A DNA stretch of 59,240 nucleotides, counting the filler, from Fonticula-like sp. SCN 57-25 (Eukaryota), in assembly GCA_001724245.1 (NCBI GenBank). It is 8 parts of 8 records of this genome, joined end to end, with 100 filler letters (N's around TTAATTAATTAA, not from the genome) between each part and the next. Parts side by side here need not be neighbours in the genome. Positions count along the whole stretch, not along the records: positions 52,005 to 59,240 come from MEDX01000382.1; 7 more parts are not named here. The stretch is one strand, 5' to 3'. Made by a program: the position numbers and the translations under genes. The notes beneath the pieces were generated by a model. The model made no database searches and was not told the origin of the DNA. It saw only the letters and a program-made list of their open reading frames with translations. Below, in pieces: positions 44,668 through 58,528 of the stretch. Numbering within the stretch: the first letter of the stretch is position 1; each line of letters starts with the position of its first letter.

Positions 44668-47600
44668 ACGGCGCCCGTCATGGCAGAGAGCTTGGACTCG
44701 AGCTCCTTGACGTTCTTCTTCTCGGCCTCGAGGCGAGCGTTGAGGCGCTCGTTCTCGCGGGCGAGCGTGTCGGCGCGGTCCTTGAACGAGTGCGCCTGGC
44801 GCTCGGCCTTGCTGTTGGACACGCGGGCCTCGGCCTCGCGGAGCTCGCCGCTGGCGACAGCGTTGCGGAGCTCCTTGATGCGGCGCTCGAGGCGGGCGAC
44901 GGCCTCGTCGGCGGCGGCCTTCTCGCGAGAGATCTCGTCGGCCTTGGCGCGGATCTCGGCGGCGGCGCGCTCGGCGGCGCGCTTCTCCTTGACGGCCTCG
45001 GCGCGGGCGGCCGACTCGGTGCGGATGCGCGACTCGGTCTCCTCAATCTTGGCCTCGAGGCGCATGATGGTGCGCTGCGGGCCGGCGGCCTTGCCAGACT
45101 CGGCGTCGGCGAGCTTGTCCTTGAGGTCGCGGACCTCGCGCTCGAGGGCGCCCTTGGCGTTCTCAAGCTCGGCGCTGATCTCGGTCTCCTTGCGGATGTC
45201 CTCGTGGGCCTGCTCGAGAAGGCGGTCGAGCTCGGCGACGCGGCGCGTCGAGAGCTCCTTGGCCTCGGCCTGCTCCTCAATCTCCTCCTCGAGGCGAGCA
45301 AGGTCGGCAGTGAGCGACTCGACGCGCTCGGCGGCGGCAGAGCGAGCGGCCTCGGCGGTGGCGAGCTGGTCCTTGGTGTCCTGGAGCTCGCCCTCGGCGG
45401 TCGTGCGGGCGGCGCGCGACTCGGCGGCCTCGGAAATGGCGGCCTCGGCAGCCTCCTTGGCGGCAACGAGCTCGACGGCAGCGGCGCGCTGCTTGGTCTC
45501 GGCCTCGCCCTCGGCGGCGACGGCGGCCTCGGTGGCGCTCTGGGCCTCGGCAAGGCGCTCGGTGAGGCGGGCAACAGCGGCCTCGCGCTCGACGGCCTCG
45601 CGGGCGGCGCGCTCGCCGACGGCGGTGAGGTCGGCGACATCGCCCTCGAGGGCGTTGTTGGCCTCGCGGAGCTCCTCGAGGCGCGCATCGCGCTCGGCAA
45701 TGACGTTCTTGAGCTCGCCGAGCTCCTTGGCGTGGCGGGCACGCGAGTCGGCCAGGGCAGCCTCCTTGTCGGCAACATCGCCCTCAAGCTGCACGCGCAG
45801 GGCCTCCAGGGCATCGCGCTGAGTGCGGCGGAACGAGCGAAGCTCGGCAAGCTCGTCGGCCTGCGACTCGAGGCGCTCCTTGAGCGTCTCGGCCTCGGCA
45901 AGAGCCTCGCGGAGCTCGGCACCAACGCGGGCCTTCTCGCGCGTCTCCTGGGCAGCGGCAAAGTTGGCGGTCTCGACCTCGGCGCGGAGGGCAGCGACCT
46001 CCTTCTCGGCCTGGACGCGCTCGACCTCGAGGGCCTCGATGCGGGCACGGAGGGCCTCGGCAACACCGGCGGCCTTCTGGAGCGAGCGCTCCTGCTCGCC
46101 GCGGCTGAACTGCTCGGCGTCAAGACGGCCGCGCAGCTCGCGGGACTCGGCAACAGCCTTCTTGCGCTCGTTGAGGGCGGCAAGCTTGGCGGCGGTCTCG
46201 TCGGCCAGGCGCTTGTTGGCGTCGGCAAGGGCCTCGACGGCAAGGTCGCGGGCGCGGACAACGGCAGCGTGGTCGCGGGCGCGCTCCTCGAGCTGGGCGT
46301 TCAGCTCGGTGACGGTGCGCTCCGACGCGCGGCGGGCCTCCTCGAGGCGGGCAACCTTGACCGAAGCCTCGGCCTCGGCGCGCTTCTCGGCGAGCGCAAT
46401 GGCGGCACCGTGGCCGCGGGCGGCAACCTCGAGCTCCTCGCGGCGCTCCGACTCCTCGGCAACGCGGTCGGCAAGGCGGCGGGCCTCGGCCTCGACATCG
46501 CGCTTGGCAGCGGCCATCTGGGCACGGGCGTTCTCGGCAAACTCGGCGGCCTCGCGAAGGGCAGCAACCTCGGTCTCGGCGGCCTTGCGAGCGCGGTTGG
46601 CGCGCTCAGCCTCAGACTCGGCGGCGGCGTTGGCCTCGGTGAGCTCGGCGGCACGGCGCTCGGCGCGCTTGAGGAGCTCGGCAAGCTTGTTCTTCTGCGA
46701 GCGCTCGCGGTCAACGTCCTCGGTGAGCTCGCGGAGCTGAACCTCAGCCTTCTTGCGGAAGCGGAGCTGCTCGGCGCGGAGGCGGGCGTCGCCCTCAAGC
46801 TGAGCCTCAAACTCGGCAAGGCGGGCCTCGACCTCGCGGCGGCCAGCAACAGCGGCGGCGCGGGCGCGCGACTCCTCCTCGTGGCGATCGCGGGCAGCGG
46901 CAAGAGCACGCTCAAACTCGCGGCGGGCCTCGCTGAGCTCCTCCGAGCTCTGCTGCGAGTCGCGGGCAAGCTTGTCGCGGAGCTCGCTAAGCTGGCGCTC
47001 GGCGCGGAGCTTCGAGTCCTCGAGCTGGGCAACAATACCCTCCAGCTCGGTCTCGCGGGCGCGCTGCTTCTCGAGCTGAGCCTCAAGGCGCTTGGTCGCC
47101 TTGGCGGCATCGGCGAGCGAACGGCCACCGACACCAGCCTCCTCGACGAGAGCGGCAAGCTGAGCCTCGGCAGAGTTCTTGCCACGGCGGGCAGTCTCGG
47201 CCTCGCTGCGGGCGCGCTCGGTGGCGGCCTCGGCATCGGCAAGCTGGTCGCGGAGGCTGCGGCGCTCACGCTCGCTACCCTCGAGGTTGCGGACAGCGTC
47301 GGCAAGCTTGGCCTGCTGGGCAGCAAGCTCGGCCTCGGCACGGCGGCGGTGCTTCTCGGCCTCGGCGAGCGAGCGGCGCTCGGTCTCGAGGGCATCGACA
47401 GACTGGTCGAGCTGGTGCTTGAGGCCAGTGCGGGCGCGCTCGAGCTCCTCGACGGAGCGGTTGAGCGCGTCGACAGCCTGCTTGGTCTCCTCAAGCTGGC
47501 CACGGAGCTGACGGCGCTCAGCGGCGCTCGAGGCGGCAGCGGCCTCAGCGGCAACGCGAGCGGCGGCGCTCAGCTCATTGCCGTCAACACCCTCCTTGCC

Positions 47601-50600
47601 GCGGAGAGCGGCGAGCTGGGCGTCGAGCTGCTTGCGGGCATCCTCCTCCTCCTCGAGGCGGTCGCGGAGCTCGTCAAGCTCAGTCTCAATGGTCTTCTTG
47701 GAGCGCTCAAGGGTAGCCTTGGAGCGGTTCGCCTCCTCGTTCTTGGCGCGGGCCTCCTCGAGCTCAGCCTCAAGAGCGCGGCGCTGGGCAGCAAGCTGCT
47801 CGCGAGCGTTGTCGGCCTCGCTGGCGCGGGCAACAGTGGCCTCGAGCTGGGTCTGGAGGGAGCGGCGGAGCTCCTCGGCCTGGCGGCGAGCGAGAGCCTC
47901 GTTCTCAAGCTGGGCAAGAGCCTCCTTGAGGTCGTTGGCGGTCTTCTTGCTGGCACGCTCGGCGGCAAGGCGAGCCTTCTCGGCGGCATCGAGGCCAGCC
48001 GAAGTATCCTCGCTGTTGGCAACAGCAGACTCGGCATCCTTCTTGGCGCGCTGCAGCTGGGCCTGAAGGGCATCGAGCTGCTCCTGGAGGCGGGCAGCCT
48101 CGGCGCGGAGACGCTTCTTCTCAGTCTCGGCAGCGGCTTCGGCGGCCTCGCGGTCACGCTGGGCACGGGAACGGATCTCCTCAATCTCAGAGTCCTTGGC
48201 GCGGCGGGTCTGCTCAATGGCGGCCTGGCGGTCGGCATCATCATCAACGGCCTCCTTGAGGGTCTCAACCTCGCGCTCGAGCTTCTTGCGGGTGGCCTCG
48301 AGCGTAGCAAGGCGCTTGCGCTCGGAAATGAGCTCAGAGTCCTTGCTGTCAGCCTCGTCGCGGGCAGCCTTGAGCTGCTTCTCGATGGCGAGGCGGCGGG
48401 CCTCCTCCTCGGCAAGGAGGGACTGGGCACGGGTGAGCTCGACATCCTTGCGGGTAACAGTCTCGGCAAGGGTGGAGCGCTCGGCCTGCACACCGGTGAG
48501 CTGGTCGCGGGACTTCTTGAGCTCCTCCTCGACCTTGCGGCGGGCCTTGTCGAGATCGCGGCGCGAATCCGCGTCGGTATCCGCGCGTTCGTTAAGCTCC
48601 ACAATCTCGGCCTCGAGCTGGCTCTTGGACTTTTCAAGGGCAGCCTTGGCCTTCTTGGCAGCCTCAATCTCGGTGGAGAGCTCGCTGATGCGGGCGTCGG
48701 CAGCGCGCTTCTGGTTCAGCATCTCGTTGGCGGACGAGCCCTCAGCCTGGAGGGTGCGCTGGAGATCCTCAACGGTGCGCATCTGCTCCTTGATCTTGGC
48801 CTCGTTCTGGGCAATGACTTCCTTGTCATCCTCGACCTGCTCGCGGGCATCCTTGAGCATGGCGTCGAGCTTGCGCTTCTCGTTCTCGAGGCGCTCGCGG
48901 GCGTCAGACTCGTCGGCGAGGCGGTTCTCGAGCTCCTCGCGCTCAGACTCGAGGCGGCTGCGGGTCTCCTCGAGGGCGGTGAGCTTGCCGACAGTGTCGT
49001 CGTACATGAACTTGGCCTGCTCGAGCTCCTTCTGGAGATCCTCGAGGGTGCGCTGAAGGGTGTCCGCGCGCGTCTCGGCGGCGGTGCGGAGCTCAGTCTC
49101 CTCGGCAAGGCGGCGCTCGAGCTCCGAAATGCGGTCGCGCAGGGCGCGCTCCTCCTCCTGCTGACGGTGGACGTCGAGGAGGGGGCGGACCTGGCGGAGA
49201 AGCTTCCACCAGGGCCACTGGTAGAGCTCAATGAAGACGCGAACGTTGCGCTGGATAACGCGGATAGCATCCTCCTGGCCAAACATGCGGCGGTACGACT
49301 TGCGGGCAAGGTAGCCACGGGCCGAGGCCTGGAAGCCAGAGATAACGGCCGAAAGCTTGGCATCGCGGCGGTCCTCAAGCTCGGCAACGACGCCGGCCTT
49401 GAAGAAGACCTTGGTGTGACCAATGCGGTGCGACTCCTTCGGGACGTTGAGGGCGCCGATGAGCGTCTCGGCGGCGACACGGCTGTCCATGAAGCCCTTC
49501 GGGATCGCGTTGGCGGCGAGAATCTCGTAGCGCTGGCGGAACTCGGCAAAGACGAGGCGGTTGGGGAAACCCATGCGCACGATACGGATACCCTCAAGCA
49601 CACCGTTGCAGCGGAGCTGGTCGAGAACGAGGGCAGCATCAATGATGCCGGGGCGCTTGGTCTCGTTGGGAATGATGCAACGCACAAAGTGGGGGTGCGT
49701 GTTGGTGAGCGTAGTCATGAGCGCGTTGAGCGAGACGCGGTGACGCTGCGACACGGACACAAAGGTGCCGGCCTTCTGGCGCTTGCGGATGGTCGACGGG
49801 GCATCGCCGCTGCTGGGCGCCGAGCCGCTGCTGCCGGTGGGGCCCATGAGGCCGTCCTCCTCAGCCTGGGCGGCCGAATCGGCAAAGAGCTCGGCAAGGA
49901 GCGGAACCTGGGAGCGACCAAAGAGCGCGGCAACGTTCTCGTTGATCGGGTCCTTGTTCTTGTCGATCCAGTTGCCAGTGTCGTAGCCGACCTCGCCGGC
50001 ATAGTGGCGGAGCACAAACATCTCGGGGCGGAGCTTGATGCGGTCGTACTTGTCGTTCTTGCCGGCGTGCTGGGCGTGCAGCTTCTCGATGAACGACTTG
50101 TCAGTGGCCTTGGGGAAGAGGCACTCCTCGTCGAGGATGGAGAGGATACCCATCGGCTTCTCGATGAGGTCAATGGTGCCCTGGAGATCGAGACCAAAGT
50201 CGACAAAGTTCCACTCGATGCCTTCGCGGATGTACTCCTCCTGCTCGAGCACGAACATGTGGTGGTTGAAGAACTGCTGGAGCTTCTCGTTGGTCAAGTT
50301 GATGCAGAGCTGCTCAAAGCTGTTGAGCTCGAAAATTTCGAAACCAGCGATATCGAGGGTGCCGATGAAGGTGCTGGCGCGACCGTGGGTCTCGAGGGTG
50401 CGGTTGATGCGCTGGACGATCCAGCGGAAGAGGCGCTCGTAGACGGCCTTGGAGAGAGCCTCAACCGAGTACTCGGCCTTCTGCGCGTTGACCTGAGCAA
50501 CGACGACCTCGCGGCCGGCCTTGACGCGCGGCTTGGTGAGGCAGCGAACAAAGTCGGTGGCCTTGAGGCCGAGGACGTGCGAGACCTTGTCCGACACAAC

Positions 50601-51689
50601 AGAGTCGGAAATCTGGGCGGCCTCCTCGCGCTTGGACTCGGTGAAGGCAAGGTTACCCATGTGGAGGATACCCGAAATAATGCGCCAGGTGCTGTCGATC
50701 TCAGACTCGGTGAAGCCGATCGTCGCCATGGCGTCCTGGGTGTCCTTGAACTCGCGCGCATCATCGACCTGGTCGATGGTGTGCGTGCCCTCGAGGTACT
50801 TGTAGTTGCGAATGTTCTCAAGGAGGTACTTTTCGCGGTTGCTGTCGTCGCTGGTGGCGAGGAGCTGGTAGAAAATGTGGAAGCTGCGCTCGTTGGCGGC
50901 ATGGCGAACCACACGGTTCTTCTCCAAGAGGTAGTTGTCAATGTTGCAACCAACAATCTTGGCATCCGAGCCAAACTCGATGCGGATGAACTTGCCGAAA
51001 CGCGACGAGTTGTTGTTACGGATGGTCTTGGCGTTACCAAAGGCCTCGAGGAGAGGGTTGGTGAGGATAATCTGCTTCTCGAGCTGGCCGACCGACATGG
51101 ACTTGCCGTCCGAGCCGGAGGAGGTACCAGCGATCGAGGCGAGGTACTGGATCACCTTCTTGGTGTTCTCAGTCTTACCGGCGCCCGACTCACCGGTAAT
51201 AAGGAGCGACTGGTTCTCGCGCTCCTGGAGCATGTTGCGGTACGCCTCGTCGCACACGGCAAAGATGTGCGGCGGCAGCTCCTTTCTCTTCTTGCCCTTG
51301 TACATCTGGACGATCTCGTCGGTGTACAGGGGAATGCGGCGCCAGGGGTTGATCACAACCAAGAAAAGACCCGAGTAAGTGTAAATCAGGTTCGACTGGT
51401 AGCGGTCGCGCAGGTTGTGCAGAACGCTCGACTCGTTCAGGTGAATGAGCTCGGCCATGTCCTCGCACTTTTCATACTTGGGCGGGTTCATGGGCTCCAG
51501 CTCGTCCTGGTTGACGGTGCGCTCCTGGCCGTCGCCGGCCTTGACGGTCACCTTGCCGCCATCCTCCTTGGTGACGTAGACGGCAATGCAGCCCTCCTTC
51601 GGGTCAATGAGCCAGGTCCACTTCTTCTGAGCCCACGCGGCCTGCTTGAGCTCGAGTTGCTCCTGGGTCTTGGAACGCAAGACGTCCAT
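44668..51689 (-). CDS. Myosin II heavy chain, long-rod paralog; intronless, stop codon beyond the contig end
   Basis: N-terminal SH3-like domain, GESGAGKT, NNNSSRFG, DIAGFE, 2 IQ motifs, WPWWKL, coiled-coil rod of at least 1505 aa. Confidence 0.96.
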
Positions 51690-52014
51690 CTTTACTCAGG
51701 CCTCCTTCCTTCTTGTGCGAAAAGAATAGGCGACTTGAGAAAAAGTGGAGTTCCTCTTGCTGAACAAAGAGAAATAACAAACCAAGAAGTTGTCAAGAAG
51801 GATGCGGGTCGTCGTTCGCCCCGGCAGGTCCTCTTTTCCTCTTCTTTCCTTGTTCCCCAACAACAGTAAAAGGAAAAAGAGGAATTTTTTCTCCTTTTTG
51901 GTGCNNNNNNNNNNNNNNNNNNNNNNNNNNNNNNNNNNNNNNNNNNNNTTAATTAATTAANNNNNNNNNNNNNNNNNNNNNNNNNNNNNNNNNNNNNNNN
52001 NNNNTGCTTTTCAG

Positions 52015-55000
52015 ACAAGGAGAACCAGTCGCTCCTCATCACTGGCGAGTCCGGTGCCGGTAAGACTGAGAACACCAAGAAGGTGATCCAGTACCTCGCC
52101 GTCGTTGCCGGTACCTCGGGCACCACCCAGGGCCAGCTCGAGAAGCAGATTCTGCTCACCAACCCTCTCCTTGAGGCTTTCGGTAACGCCAAGACGATCC
52201 GTAACAACAACTCGTCGCGTTTCGGCAAGTTCATCCGCATCGAGTTCGCCTCGGACGGCAAGATTGTCGGTTGCCACATTGAGAACTACCTCCTCGAAAA
52301 GTCGCGCGTCATTCGCCGCGCCGACAACGAGCGCTCGTTCCACATCTTTTACCAGCTCCTCGACGGCGCCACTGCCCAGCAGAAGACCGACTTCCTCCTC
52401 GAGACCCCGCGCCAGTACCGCTACCTCAAGGGCGAGGCCAACATTGACGGCGTCGACAACAAGAAGGAGTTTGAGGAGACCCTCTCGGCCATGCAGGTCA
52501 TCGGCTTCACCGACGCCGAGCGCGACCAGCTCTGGTCGATCCTTTCGGGTATCCTGCACTTTGGCAACATGGAGTTTGTTGGCTCCAAGCGCGAGGACAG
52601 CGCCCAGATCAAGAATGTCGAGACCGCGGACAAGGTCTCGCACCTGTTTGGCATCAAGAGCGCCGACCTCCAGCGCTGCCTGCTCAAGCCGCGCGTCAAG
52701 GCCGGTCGCGAGTGGGTGACTGCCATGGTCACCGCCGACAAGGCCGAGTACAGCGTCGAGGCTCTCTGCAAGAGCATGTACGAGCGCATGTTCAAGTGGA
52801 TCGTTTCGCGCATCAACTCGACCCTCGAGACCCACGGCCGCGTGTCCACCTTCATTGGCTGCCTCGATATCGCAGGTTTTGAGATCTTTGATCACAACAG
52901 CTTTGAGCAGCTGTGCATCAACTTGACCAACGAGAAGCTCCAGCAGTTCTTCAACCACCACATGTTCGTGCTCGAGCAGGAGGAGTACATCCGCGAGGGC
53001 ATCGAGTGGAAGTTTGTCGACTTTGGCCTCGATCTCCAGCCCACGATCGACCTCATTGAGAAGCCCCTCGGTATTCTTTCCATCCTCGACGAGGAGTGCC
53101 TCTTCCCCAAGGCCTCGGACAAGTCCTTCATTGAGAAGCTCCACGCCCAGCAGGACGGCAAGCACGAGAAGTACCACAAGATCCGCCTGAACCCGGACAT
53201 GTTCCTTCTCGACCACTATGCCGGCTCTGTCCCGTACGAGACCGCCAACTGGCTCGACAAGAACAAGGACCCGATCAACGACAACGTTGCCTCGCTCCTC
53301 AGCAAGTCGACCAACCCGCTCATCGCCAACCTCTTTGAGGATGCCGTGTCCGAGGAGGACGGCTCCGTCAAGGCGCGCGCCGGCAAGGCCTCGACCTTCA
53401 TCACGGTCGCCCAGCGCCACCGCCAGCAGCTCAACGCGCTCATGACCACCCTTCGCGCCACCGTGCCGCACTTTGTGCGCTGCATCATCCCCAACGAGCA
53501 GAAGAAGGCCGGTATCATCGACGCCCCGCTCGTCCTCGACCAGCTCCGCTGCAACGGTGTGCTCGAAGGTATCCGTATCGTGCGCATGGGTTTCCCGAGC
53601 CGCCTTCCGTTCGCCGAGTTCAAGCAGCGCTACGAGATCCTCGCCGTCGGCGTCATCCCCAAGGGCTTCATGGACGGCAAGGTCGCCGCCGTCAAGCTGC
53701 TCGAGTCGCTCGCCATCGCCAAGGACAACTTCCGCATCGGTAACAGCAAGGTGTTCTTCAAGGCCGGCGCCATCGCCGAGCTCGAGGAGCGCCGTGACGA
53801 GCGCCTGAGCCAGCTCATCTCTGGCTTCCAGGCCGCCTCGCGCGGCTACCTCGCGCGCCGCCGCTTCCGCCGCCAGCACGGCAAGGAGGAGGCGATCAAC
53901 GTCATCCAGAAGAACGCGCGCGTCTTTATCGAGCTGTACCAGTGGAGCTGGTGGAAGCTGTACCGCCAGGTCAAGCCTCTGCTCGGCGTCCACCGCACCG
54001 AGCAGGAGCAGAAGAAGCTCACGGACCGCATCAAGGAGCTCGAGGCCGCCCTCAAGAGCGAGGAGGCTCTCCGCGCCGAGCTCGAGGCCAAGGTTGCCAC
54101 CCTTGCCAAGGAGCACGAGACGTCGCTGACCGACCTTGCCACGGAGCGCGAGGCGCTTGAGGAGACTGTGCAGTCGCTCAAGAACCTCGAGGAGAAGCGC
54201 GCCAAGCTGCAGGCGATGCTCAAGGACAATGAGAAGCTGCTCGAGGAGGCTGACGAGGAGAACGCCCGCATCGACTCGACCAACAAGCGCCTCCAGGAGG
54301 AGATCAAGGGCCTCAACGCCAAGCTCGCCGACGACACTGAGAAGCGCGCCGCCATGGAGGAGGTGCGCAAGCAGAACCAGGTCGAGCTCGAGCAGGCCCG
54401 CAACATGTTCAACGCCGAGAAGGAGAAGCTCTCTGGCGACCTCGAGAACGAGCGCCGCAAGCGCGAGCAGGCCGTCGCCGAGCTGCGCGGCCAGCTTGAG
54501 GCTGCGCAGAGCTCGCTCGAGCGCGCCCGCAAGGAGGCCAAGAACGCGTCGGCCAACAATGACGAGATGAGCGCCTCGCTCGCCGCCGCCGAGCAGGGCA
54601 AGCAGTCGGCCGAGACGGCCCGCCGCAACCTCGAGCGCGACCTGCAGGACGCCCAGAACGAGCTGCGCGTCGCCAACGCCAAGCGCCAGCTGCTTGAGGA
54701 CAGCAAGAAGGAGCTTGACGACAAGATTGCCGCCATGAACCAGCGCCTCGACGAGGCCGAGGCCAGCAAGGCCGCCGTCGGCCAGGCCAAGGCGAGCCTC
54801 GAGGAGGAGCTTGAGGAGATGCAGAAGCAGGTGTCGGACGCCAACAAGGCGCGCGCCGCCGCTGACCAGCAGCGCAAGTCCGTCGAGACGCAGCTCGGCG
54901 ATGCCGACACGCGCCTGCGCGCCGAGGAGGCGCGCCGCAAGGAGGCCGAGATCAAGGTGTCGACCCTCGAGGCTCAGCTCGAGGACGCCACCGACAAGCT

Positions 55001-55203
55001 CAACCGCGCCGTCGCCGCGTCGGACAACTCGCTGCTCGAGGCGCTCCGCGCCGAGCGCGCCAAGAACGCCGCCCTCGAGGAGAAGATCCGCTCCGAGACG
55101 GCCCGCCGCCTCGCTGCCGAGGAGCGCTACGCCCAGGAGCAGGCCCGCAACCAGGACGTTGACGAGCGCGTTCGCCAGATCCGCGAGATCCTCCTCCGCT
55201 AAG
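52015..55203 (+). CDS. Myosin II heavy chain, short-rod paralog; 5' partial
   Basis: Begins after acceptor ttttcag; same motor and IQ motifs, WSWWKL; 408-aa rod, then TAA and an AT-rich 3' region. Confidence 0.95.
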
Positions 55204-55458: not shown

Positions 55459-57015
55459 ATGGAGACATTTCCGACGTTGCTGGGGATATTCTTTGCTGAA
55501 TTCCACCCTGTTCAGGGGCCCAAAGTGACATTCCAGGCACCCGAAGGGCTCTTGAAGAACGACACATTTGAGAGCATCTCGGATTATGTCATTCCGAAGC
55601 CTCAACTGTGCGGCCGGTTGGTGACCCTGTACGCGCCATCCCACCGCCCACCGCCCTTCTAACCGCGCCTTGCTTTCCCCACAGGCACGTAGACGACCTC
55701 AAGGTCATTGGGTACCCTGTCATAATTGAGAACCAGCGGTACCCCCGCAATGCCATGATCTTTAATCTCGGCATGATCTTTGAGGCGAATGCCGATTCAC
55801 GGTGCTTTGAGCCTGTCGTTCGCAAGCTTGCCAAGACGCTGCGCACAGTCGAGGTGCGCTTTCGTTGTCGCACTCTTCTTTTTGTGTACTCATTTGGCTC
55901 TCTTTGCAGCTTGAGTCTGACTTTTTGTGGAATGTGACGACCAAGGCCCAGCTTGAAGGCGTTCTTGAGCAGCTCCTGTCGGATCTGAACGCCTTTCGCG
56001 AGTGCCAGATCCCCTTCAGTGCGCCCTTTTCCTCCGCCTTTGACCGCCTTTCTCACGCTGACGCGCCGCAGCCCGCGAGAACGCCGTCAATGTAAAGCTG
56101 TTTCCGATCTTTGAGGAGCCGCCGACCGTGTACGACGAGTCGGTGCCCGTGCCGCTGATCGACCTGCAGCAGTTTCTCTGCCGCGACTGGGACATGACCA
56201 TGGGCCGCGTGCGCCTCTTTTCCTCCTTTTCTTTTGCCATGTGCTTACAAAGCGGCTTTTGCAGGTGATCCCGCTGATCGACGGGTCCAACTACACCAAG
56301 CGGATCGCCGATCAGGCCGATGTCGATCTTGAGCTCGCCCGCAAGGCCATCCAGCATCTCGTGTGCGTCGCTTCTCATTTTCATCAACCGCACTCTAACC
56401 TTGTTATATTCACCAGTTATTATGGCTGTGTGCGGCTTGTGGACGTGTTCCAGTACACAAACACGTACGCATGCACATCGCGGATCAGCAAGCTCGCCAA
56501 TGATGCGCACCTTCAGGAGCAGTGCTACAAGTTTGTCGTCAACCGAGGTGCGCTTTTTCGCCTTTTTTGCTGCTGCTGAGCGTCGCTGCAGACGCGGTTG
56601 ACGTCCAGTTCACGTCCATCTTTACGCTGTACTGCGCACTGCGGCACGGCCGGACGGTCACCGAGGTGCTCGCGACACGAAAGGCGCTCGCCGCTCAGAT
56701 CGACGTGAGGTGCGCCGCCGACACTTTTCTTGTAAAGATTGCTCACTTTTTTGTGTTCCGACGGCACTTTTTGTGTATTTTAGAAAGTTTATTCTGTTTG
56801 GCGTCTTTCACGACTTTCTGCGCATCGTCAACCGGCATCTCGTCAAGGCGCCCGGATCGCCCGAGGTCGAGGCGATCGCGGCGCCGCTGCGGCGGTTCCT
56901 TGCGGGCGGCGCGGCGAGGACGATGAACCAGGTGTGCACGGCGCTCTCGTACGCGGCGTCCGAGATCGAGGACGTCATCGAGGCCGACCCAAACATCCGC
57001 GTCCTCTACAAGTAG
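55459..57015 (+). CDS. NPRL2: GATOR1 subunit NPRL2, 7 introns
   Basis: IFFAEFHPVQGPKV, YVIPKPQLC, YPRNAMIFN, WDMTM, FQYTNTY. Confidence 0.95.
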
Positions 57016-57234: not shown

Positions 57235-57678
57235 TCAGTTCTTGCCGGTCGAGCCAAAGCCGCCGGCGCCGCGCTCGGTGTCGTCGAGGTCCTCGACCTC
57301 CTTGATCTCGGGGGTCAAGATGCGCTCGAGGATGAGCTGCGCGACGCGCTCCTTGGGCTTGACCACGTAGTCGACATCGGAAAAGTTGAAGAGGACAACG
57401 CCGACGTTGCCGCGGTAGTCGGCGTCAATGACGCCCGCGCCGCAGTCGAGGAAGTGCTTGACGGCGAGCCCGCTGCGGGGCGCCACGCGACCGTAGCAGC
57501 CCTCCGGGACGGCGATCGACAGGTCGGTCGGGACGATGGCCTTGCCCTTGGCGGGGACGACCGTCTCGACGGCGCTGTACAGATCATAGCCCGCGCTGAG
57601 GGGGGTGCCGCGCGTGGGGATGGTCGCGTTCTCGGAAAGACGCTTCACAAGAAGCAGGATCTCACCGGTAGAAGACAT
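57235..57678 (-). CDS. DUT: Trimeric dUTPase, intronless
   Basis: Motifs [32 protein letters not shown]. Confidence 0.97.
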
Positions 57679-57748
57679 GGCACGCCGCTTGGTCATTACA
57701 GAGTCGCACAAAGGAGCAAAGAAAAAGTGCGCGCGCGCTTTTTTGCAT

Positions 57749-57874: not shown

Positions 57875-58408
57875 ATGGCCGCCGCGCTCAAGAAGTCCTT
57901 TGGTACGCGATCCGCACGAGGCCCGCGCGCGTAATGCGCGCTTTCAGCCATGTAGCATGCATTTTTCTTTGCGTTTTCCTTCTTTTCTTTTCTCTTTGCT
58001 TTGTTTTCCTTCATCTTCACTCGCTTGATGCTAACGAGGGAACACTTTTGCGCAGCGCCCATTATCAACGCGGCGCAGCTCGCCTTCCACCTCGGCAAGG
58101 AGGTCGCCGTCCGCGAAAAGTTCGCCCCGAACGTCGGCGCCTTTGGCCCCGCCGTCGGCGAGTTCGTCAAGGCCTCCAAGAACGCCATCAATGTCAAGCA
58201 TGTGCGTTCTTTCCTCGCTGGCTCTCTTTTAATGTGTTGCTCACATGGCCGCCTTGTGCTCTACTCTGTGCAGGTTTCCAACTTGACCATGCGCGACCTT
58301 GCCGTCCGCGCCGTTGTGTTCGCTGAGGTTCTCGGTTTCTTCACCCTCGGCGAGATCATTGGCCGCCGCAGCCTCGTCGGCTACAAGGTCGGCTCTGTGT
58401 CGCACTAA
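57875..58408 (+). CDS. ATP5MG: Mitochondrial ATP synthase subunit g, 2 introns
   Basis: C-terminal [21 protein letters not shown] signature. Confidence 0.9.
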
Positions 58409-58528
58409 GCCGTCGTGCGGTAGATGTTGCTGTTCCTCGCCTCTTTTTTTTCTTGTCTATTATATCAATGTTTCTAATATAAAACCTCGGCTGTACGCCC
58501 CGCTGCTCTATGCGTGCTCTGACGCGTG

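What the first reader, a model, noticed from the sequence alone, without database searches (positions are those of the whole stretch)
53977..55203. Mini-myosin II: rod shortened by exactly one 196-residue repeat and lacking the distal assembly region
Seen (manual alignment): the 408-aa rod matches the long paralog over residues 1-98, then jumps exactly 196 residues (IDSTNKRL..DDTEKRAAMEE vs LEATRKKL..DDADRQAAIEQ). It later jumps ~820 residues to an ungapped near-terminal match (DKL..AK..IRSETARR vs DKL..AK..IRTESAAR) and stops ~80 residues before the long rod's visible end. Established: myosin II rods have 28- and 196-residue periodicity, and filament assembly needs a C-terminal assembly-competence domain. 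Inference: a phase-preserving deletion derivative that may be non-filamentous or may co-assemble with the long form, giving a two-component long/short myosin II system.
Basis: partly seen in the sequence, partly recalled or inferred. Interest (0 to 1): 0.74.

Follow-up and report, generated by a model that had tools for sequence, protein, structure and literature searches.

The report
Conserved mini myosin II in nucleariids
A group of amoeboid relatives of fungi carries a muscle-type motor protein whose tail is only about a third of the usual length and lacks the stretch normally needed to build filaments, which offers a natural test of how little tail such a motor needs.

Summary
Window 52015-55202 (+) encodes a class II myosin whose rod is only 407 residues. 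Five other proteins, among them Fonticula alba and a complete Lithocolla transcript, have 407-410-residue rods that align without gaps and stop at the same place; a sixth genomic copy gives 404. So this is an old, conserved nucleariid paralogue of about 1,220 aa, not an artefact. Against the long paralogue, rod residues ~100-330 lie exactly 196 residues downstream (best diagonal in 6 of 6 orthologues). The ~820 jump is weak pairwise but supported by triangulation through animal rods: the last ~75 residues are the terminal-skip segment, and the chain stops ~7 residues before the 29-residue assembly domain. The second deletion keeps the 28- but not the 196-residue phase. Corrections: the two genes sit on separate contigs, a third myosin II tail exists in this assembly, and no long orthologue was found in Fonticula or Lithocolla. 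Best mechanism (0.37, inferred): a two-headed motor that cannot nucleate filaments and joins those of a long myosin II. Self-assembly through its conserved tip and tip-anchored dimers are close rivals. I found no description of this form in ten literature searches.

The parts
52015..53825 (+). Motor domain of the short myosin II (exon starts after an intron acceptor at 52013-52014; the N-terminal ~160 aa are off the contig)
   Evidence: Pfam Myosin_head E 1e-239; P-loop, switch I, switch II and SH1-helix motifs intact; ortholog locus L035 has an intron at the same codon position; no contig with the missing 5' exon found
53826..53978 (+). Neck with two IQ-like motifs ending at the invariant proline
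   Evidence: Sequence and alignment A1
53979..54272 (+). Rod segment 1 (residues 1-98), collinear with proximal S2 of long and animal rods; first junction lies within 54246-54311 (residues ~90-111)
   Evidence: Offset 0 best in 6 of 6 orthologues vs P0001 and in 31 of 36 animal rods; change-point fit
54273..54968 (+). Rod segment 2 (residues 99-330), displaced by exactly 196 residues; contains the skip-1 register shift near residue 150-155
   Evidence: 71 of 237 identical on +196; best in 23 of 36 animal rods; heptad phase shift
54969..55199 (+). Rod segment 3 (residues 331-407): neutral to slightly basic tip derived from the terminal-skip region; conserved Asp-Asn-Ser at 55023-55031 marks the skip; second junction within 54939-54977
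   Evidence: Offsets 617-619 best in 19 of 36 animal rods, 619+397=1016; register shift at ~350 and net charge -2 to +2; most conserved 20-residue block of the rod, 57%
55200..55202 (+). Stop codon TAA, ~7 residues before the position of the 29-residue assembly-competence domain
   Evidence: Same end within 0-3 residues in five other proteins including a complete transcript; alignment of C-termini; no further rod sequence downstream
44677..51689 (-). Long myosin II paralogue (at least 2,337 aa, rod at least 1,501; C-terminus cut by the contig end). Absent from the short rod: 48300-48887 (196 aa), 45144-47603 (820 aa), 44679-44912 (78 aa, including the ACD-equivalent at 44811-44897)
51905..52004 (.). 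Artificial spacer (44 N, 12-base linker, 44 N) joining contigs C381 and C382
   Evidence: Seven identical spacers about every 7.3 kb; contig map

Best explanation
Shown: a genuine, conserved class II myosin of about 1,220 aa in nucleariid amoebae, with an intact motor and neck and a 407-residue (~60 nm) coiled-coil rod made from the long ancestral rod by one 196-residue deletion in S2, one large deletion of whole 28-mers that brings the terminal skip to 197 residues after skip 1, and loss of everything from the assembly-competence domain onward. Inferred: it forms a two-headed dimer that cannot nucleate filaments alone; its acidic rod body docks on the basic C-terminal region of a long myosin II of the same cell, so it acts as an add-on motor subunit that changes head number or length of contractile filaments.
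For: Both NM2B assembly domains (1729-1763 and 1875-1913 in PMC13438149; 1875-1903 in PMC2204051; rod starts at 844) fall in the deleted or lost parts. An MHC-IIB rod cut 116 residues from the end, close to where the short rod stops, did not self-assemble (PMC2204051). ACD-less NM2A still joins existing filaments, and as well as full length when it cannot fold back (PMC11257479). Lateral-packing signal persists: attraction at a 96-100-residue stagger beats heptad-preserving shuffles at p <= 0.01 in 4 of 6 short rods. Rod length is fixed at 407-410 without gaps at 31-62% identity. Long myosin II genes exist in the same assembly with near-identical codon bias.
Against: No binding or assembly data. 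The window's own rod does not reach significance in the stagger test (p 0.094), nor does P0006 (p 0.41); animal controls are much stronger (12 of 12, p < 0.004). The 28-residue charge period is weak in all short rods. A crude short-on-long charge scan gave no canonical stagger. In-phase deletions can arise by recombination between repeats with no selection for packing (inference). No long orthologue was recovered from Fonticula or Lithocolla, although one as close as the short forms would have passed the threshold if scored. The long and short genes are on unlinked contigs of a metagenome-type assembly.
Confidence: 0.37

Rival explanations
1. Self-assembling minimal myosin II: the retained terminal-skip segment has become a new assembly domain, so the protein builds its own small bipolar assemblies without a canonical ACD.
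For: The rod kept a distal segment rather than simply stopping; that segment holds the most conserved block; the acid-body/neutral-tip polarity is kept in 7 of 7 rods (last 56 residues 0 to +4, whole rod -16 to -29); 98-stagger signal in 4 of 6; no long partner found in the named species.
Against: Lacks both mapped ACDs; in MHC-IIB the whole basic region was needed for efficient assembly (PMC2204051); tip charge is only neutral to +4; no single antiparallel overlap is favoured across orthologues.
Confidence: 0.29
2. Non-filamentous two-headed motor, the size of heavy meromyosin, whose conserved tip is bound by an adaptor at a membrane or node, comparable to the unipolar role proposed for fission yeast Myo2; rod length is conserved as a spacer.
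For: No ACD; weak 28-residue charge period (short median power 3.5 vs animal 6.5 on the homologous segment); conserved tip with extra large hydrophobic residues outside a/d positions (0.09-0.13 vs 0.04 mid-rod); unipolar membrane-attached Myo2 model (PMC5994903).
Against: The long nucleariid rods are equally weak in 28-periodicity (P0001 4.1, P0163 1.8), so weakness does not single out the short form; stagger signal retained in 4 of 6; no adaptor identified.
Confidence: 0.29
3. Artefact: collapsed assembly, premature stop, or splicing into further rod exons.
For: Fragmented assembly; 5' end of the gene missing; no read-level check was obtained.
Against: Six other sequences from different sources end at the same place, one of them a complete transcript; an independent database record of this protein has the same C-terminus (P0003; it may come from the same sample); no rod-like sequence downstream.
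Confidence: 0.03

Closest known systems
Fonticula alba 'myosin heavy chain' XP_009497760.1 / A0A058Z113 (1,224 aa) and Lithocolla globosa EP00732_P001103 (1,219 aa)
   Same: Direct orthologues: head identity 79% and 72%, rods of 408 and 410 aa aligned without gaps.
   Different: Carry only a generic name; I found no paper that remarks on the short rod.
Animal non-muscle and striated myosin II
   Same: Motor, neck, proline, heptads, skip 1 and terminal skip in matching positions, acid body with neutral tip.
   Different: Rod ~1,090-1,160 aa with ACD and tailpiece; the short form lacks 196 + ~422 internal residues and the last ~65-100 residues.
Long holomycotan myosin II (early fungi 2,280-2,300 aa; P0001, P0163)
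   Same: Same class; P0001 and P0163 form one clade with the short forms (99.6/100).
   Different: Rods of 1,476-1,501 aa = animal rod plus two 197-residue units; the short rod is 27% of that.
Acanthamoeba myosin II (1,509 aa, PMC2114752 abstract) and S. pombe Myo2 (1,526 aa) with Myp2
   Same: Short-tailed myosin II; two myosins II in one cell with different roles (PMC5994903 passages).
   Different: Their heavy chains are ~300 aa longer than this one; different lineages and independent shortening. Minifilament formation by Acanthamoeba myosin and the length of Myp2 are recalled, not checked.
Myosin 18A and engineered ACD-less NM2A
   Same: Join NM2 filaments as minority subunits (PMC11112018, PMC11257479 passages).
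   Different: Myo18A is a separate class with negligible ATPase; the ACD-less NM2A is artificial. Here the catalytic motifs are intact and the truncation is natural and conserved.

Membership tests
Class II myosin | Motor domain groups with myosin II | tested here: met
   Head trees place it among myosins II; best solved relatives are myosin-9, -10, -11. The trees held only myosin II rows, so class rests on the search rankings.
Class II myosin | N-terminal SH3-like domain | tested here: inconclusive
   Off the contig in this copy; present in P0008 (E 2e-12) and below cut-off in P0005.
Class II myosin | Two IQ motifs, invariant proline, coiled-coil tail homologous to Myosin_tail_1 | tested here: met
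   Myosin_tail_1 E 6e-9, just under the curated cut-off; collinearity with animal rods.
Class II myosin | Actin-activated ATPase and motility | not testable with these tools
   Catalytic motifs intact; no assay.
Filament-forming (assembly-competent) myosin II | 29-residue ACD near the C-terminus | tested here: not met
   Chain ends at animal rod position ~1025; ACD is 1032-1060.
Filament-forming (assembly-competent) myosin II | Net-positive C-terminal region | tested here: inconclusive
   About 75 residues of it are kept, net -2 to +2; same segment in four animal rods -1 to +3.
Filament-forming (assembly-competent) myosin II | 28/196-residue charge periodicity favouring a 98-residue stagger | tested here: inconclusive
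   Stagger significant in 4 of 6, not in the window's own rod; 28-period power weak.
Filament-forming (assembly-competent) myosin II | Forms bipolar filaments at low salt | not testable with these tools
   Needs sedimentation and EM.
Nucleariid short myosin II (this report) | Rod of 404-410 aa, +196 offset, Asp-Asn-Ser skip block, no ACD | tested here: met
   the block is partly changed in P0007 and the distal half of L035 has diverged.

The most novel reading that the evidence does not exclude
Nucleariids evolved a minimal myosin II that assembles without any canonical assembly domain, using a grafted terminal-skip segment as a new tip, and in some species (possibly Fonticula alba) it does the contractile work with no close long partner; that would overturn the rule that an ACD is needed to start myosin II filaments and give a culturable model for the shortest working tail.
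Probability: 0.17. Interest if true: 0.85.

Novelty: new variant of a known kind. Interest (0 to 1): 0.64.

Why it matters
Myosin II tail length and the C-terminal assembly domain are treated as requirements for contractile filaments. A 407-residue, ACD-less rod conserved across a whole lineage at 31-62% identity is a natural deletion experiment: it makes testable what minimum tail supports contraction and whether filament joining can be separated from nucleation in a native system, as was proposed from engineered NM2A (PMC11257479). Fonticula alba carries the orthologue. It also bears on the cytoskeleton of the sister group of fungi, where long rods grew by two super-repeats while this paralogue shrank by whole repeats.

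Tried and rejected
Tandem or head-to-head gene pair: rejected, the genes are on separate contigs joined by a spacer. Simple truncation after the 196 deletion, or a +397 last segment: +196 continued scores poorly over 331-407 in animal rods (mean z 1.4), while +397 ties with +1016 against P0001 alone (z 4.1 vs 4.0) and is disfavoured only by the animal-rod mapping. Against fungal long rods the super-repeat register could not be resolved: of 11 other rods of 1,400-1,520 aa only P0163 had ~192 as best offset. Recent origin of the long form from the short, or head gene conversion: the best trees nest P0001 among short forms, but short monophyly is not rejected (AU p 0.086) and no near-identical DNA tract was seen. 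Search for long orthologues in named nucleariids: none (8,000-candidate caps). 5' exon of the short gene: not found in the assembly. Sequencing runs: no RNA holder listed; no read-level check of the stop was obtained, so transcript ends in this organism remain open. Complex prediction of four copies of the C-terminal 110 residues: no verdict. Single-sequence AlphaFold of the rod: two long helices, uninformative. ESM Atlas: only generic myosin-tail clusters. Antiparallel charge scan: no shared optimum. Pfam scan of neighbouring genes failed on a coordinate error and was not repeated. Earlier scan notes: none on this gene. Literature: ten searches found no description of a short nucleariid myosin II; subscription journals, the CyMoBase entries and most supplements of the myosin surveys were not visible.

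Full report
Setting. The window is not one chromosome stretch. Seven identical spacers (44 N, a 12-base linker, 44 N) recur about every 7.3 kb, and the genome search maps the pieces to separate contigs of a 9.5-Mb, 749-contig assembly. The long myosin (44677-51689, minus strand, at least 2,337 aa, cut by the contig end) is on C381; the short one (to the stop at 55200-55202, plus strand) is on C382. Their adjacency is therefore meaningless. Both have a myosin head and Myosin_tail_1 matches. The short gene's contig begins in an intron: an acceptor lies at 52013-52014, and an orthologous locus has an intron at the same codon position. The missing 5' exon was not found. Codon bias of the two genes is nearly the same, which fits one organism but does not prove it.

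The observation. The short rod is 407 residues from the invariant proline. It matches the long rod at offset 0 over residues 1-98 (33 of 98 identical) and at offset +196 over 99-335 (71 of 237; background over all diagonals 25.8 +/- 6.0, next best 49). +196 was best in 13 of 21 windows starting at 91-291. A change-point fit puts the junction at residues ~90-111. The second jump is weaker: 15 of 72 identical on +1016, not among the eight best diagonals, and a three-segment fit preferred +397.

It is a conserved family. A search with the neck and rod returned, besides this protein's own record, five proteins far above the rest (E 1e-95 to 1e-83, next 1e-21): Fonticula alba (1,224 aa), Lithocolla globosa (1,219 aa, transcript marked complete) and three unnamed ones. 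Their rods are 407-410 residues, align without a gap, are 31-62% identical to each other and stop within three residues of each other. An AT-rich genomic copy (L035, with a near-duplicate L036) gives 404 residues after removal of an intron. Fonticula is listed as a nucleariid in PMC6299283 (passages) and the supplement of PMC5583752; that Lithocolla is one is recalled. The window's organism is placed with them from the myosin tree alone: seven short forms, the long P0001 and another long protein (P0163, 2,327 aa, unnamed) form a clade at 99.6/100. P0001 falls among the short forms in the best trees, but a single short clade is not rejected (AU p 0.086).

Anatomy of the rod. Each of the six short rods, taken alone against P0001, gives offset 0 and then +196 as best (6 of 6 each; z 7.5-8.4 for +196); +1016 is best for residues 316-385 in 4 of 6 and in the top three in 6 of 6 (z 3.1-4.6). 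Against 36 non-redundant animal rods (of 153), +196 is best in 23 of 36, and the last 77 residues map best to +617-619 in 19 of 36 (profile to profile: 619, z 4.2, next 3.2). The long rod's C-terminal part maps to animal rods at +397 (z 6.9), and 619 + 397 = 1016. So the second jump is supported by triangulation, and an alignment of C-termini shows it without gaps. Against fungal long rods the register among super-repeats was not resolved. Heptad phase in the short rods shifts by one near residue 150 and again near 350. NM2B has skips at 1193, 1586 and 1811 (PMC13438149, passages) and its rod starts at 844 (PMC2204051, passages), which gives rod 350 and 968; minus 196 and 617 these are 154 and 351. 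The second deletion is 421-422 residues in animal terms, 15 units of 28 plus skips: whole 28-mers but not whole 196-mers, and it leaves the two skips 197 apart. The block around the second skip is the best conserved of the rod (57%). The long rods of nucleariids and early fungi are the animal rod plus two 197-residue units, so the long form is the likely ancestor.

The assembly region. The 29-residue ACD of MHC-IIB is 1875-1903 inside a basic region 1748-1931 (PMC2204051); a second ACD is 1729-1763 (PMC13438149). The short chain keeps the equivalent of rod ~949-1025 and stops seven residues before the ACD; the second ACD lies in the deleted block. In PMC2204051 a rod cut 116 residues from the end, close to this end point, was virtually unable to assemble. 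The short rods keep the charge polarity (whole rod -16 to -29, last 77 residues -2 to +2, 7 of 7). Attraction at a 96-100-residue parallel stagger beats heptad-preserving shuffles at p <= 0.01 in 4 of 6; the window's own rod gives p 0.094 and P0006 0.41; the 12 animal rods tested (of 36) all gave p < 0.004, P0001 was under 0.05 in 3 of 5 windows and P0163 in 1 of 5. The 28-residue charge period is weak in short rods (median power 3.5 against 6.5 in animals on the homologous segment) but also in the long nucleariid rods. The six rods are related, so these are not independent trials.

How it most likely works. Shown: intact catalytic motifs, a continuous coiled coil of about 60 nm (0.1485 nm per residue, recalled), no ACD. 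Inferred: it cannot start filaments and joins those of a long myosin II through its acidic body (0.37). ACD-less NM2A does so in cells, and as well as full length when folding back is blocked (PMC11257479, abstract and passages); myosin 18A is a natural minority subunit (PMC11112018, passages). Rivals are nearly as strong: self-assembly through the conserved tip (0.29), and a tip-anchored dimer like the unipolar Myo2 modelled in PMC5994903 (passages) (0.29). Against the partner model, no long orthologue came from Fonticula or Lithocolla; one as close to P0001 as the short forms are (E 1e-115 to 1e-120) would have passed the 1e-110 cut if it was among the 8,000 scored, whereas a fungal-type long form would not. 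This assembly also holds the last 192 residues of a third, fungal-type myosin II tail with a canonical end (C675; 32% to a chytrid myosin, E 1e-19), whose head was not found, so the set may have three members. In-phase deletions can also arise simply by recombination between repeats (inference).

What is known. The orthologues are in databases as 'myosin heavy chain'. Ten searches found no paper on their short rod. PMC5583752 includes Fonticula in its species table but its main text, in the passages seen, does not discuss it; PMC3942036 and PMC7895527 do not mention Fonticula (word counts); 10.1101/2025.05.16.654244 names it only in a reference (passages, section 5; two supplements of PMC12139777 had no hit); PMC6299283 discusses nucleariid class I and XV myosins (passages, supplement hits); PMC5045269 (passages) describes the skips. 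Subscription papers, CyMoBase and most survey supplements were not visible and may bear on novelty. Acanthamoeba myosin II, a known short-tailed form, is 1,509 aa (PMC2114752, abstract) and S. pombe Myo2 1,526 aa. Thirteen of the 226 rods in hand were shorter than 407; I did not check them and take most for fragments, so 'shortest myosin II' is likely but not shown.

Verdict. A real, lineage-wide mini myosin II; a new variant of a known kind; function open between three testable models. Interest 0.64.

Noticed in passing
G000:C675:3-581 (+), locus L113: C-terminal 192 aa of a third myosin II-like tail, closer to chytrid myosin II than to the long paralogue in the window; the head is not in the assembly. 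It could be a third myosin II, a headless rod protein or a contaminant.
   Followed up: partly
G000:C78, locus L005:193-3570 (-): A myosin with a Myosin-VI cargo-binding domain (E 1e-31) and a weak MYO6 lever match. PMC5583752 dates class 6 to the holozoan ancestor and PMC3942036 reports none in fungi or amoebozoans, so a nucleariid copy would be notable if the contig belongs to this organism.
   Followed up: partly
G000:C21, locus L004:736-4734 (-): Myosin head followed by a long coiled coil and a C-terminal PH domain; class not determined.
   Followed up: no
window 44677-49181 (-); P0163, P0046, P0168, L038: Long rods of nucleariids and early fungi equal the animal rod plus exactly two 197-residue units (offsets step by 197 twice).
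   Followed up: partly
window 44677-51689 (-): The head of the long myosin falls among the short forms in both head and rod trees, next to the GC-rich Fonticula and window copies; composition bias or old gene conversion are both possible.
   Followed up: partly
L035:2900-4430: This AT-rich orthologue keeps the total rod length (404 aa) although its distal half has diverged and the conserved skip block is not recognisable.
   Followed up: no
window 55460-57015 (+), 57235-57680 (-), 57878-58409 (+): Neighbours on the same contig look like an NPRL2-type gene, a dUTPase and ATP synthase subunit g (recalled from the sequence, not confirmed by a call).
   Followed up: no
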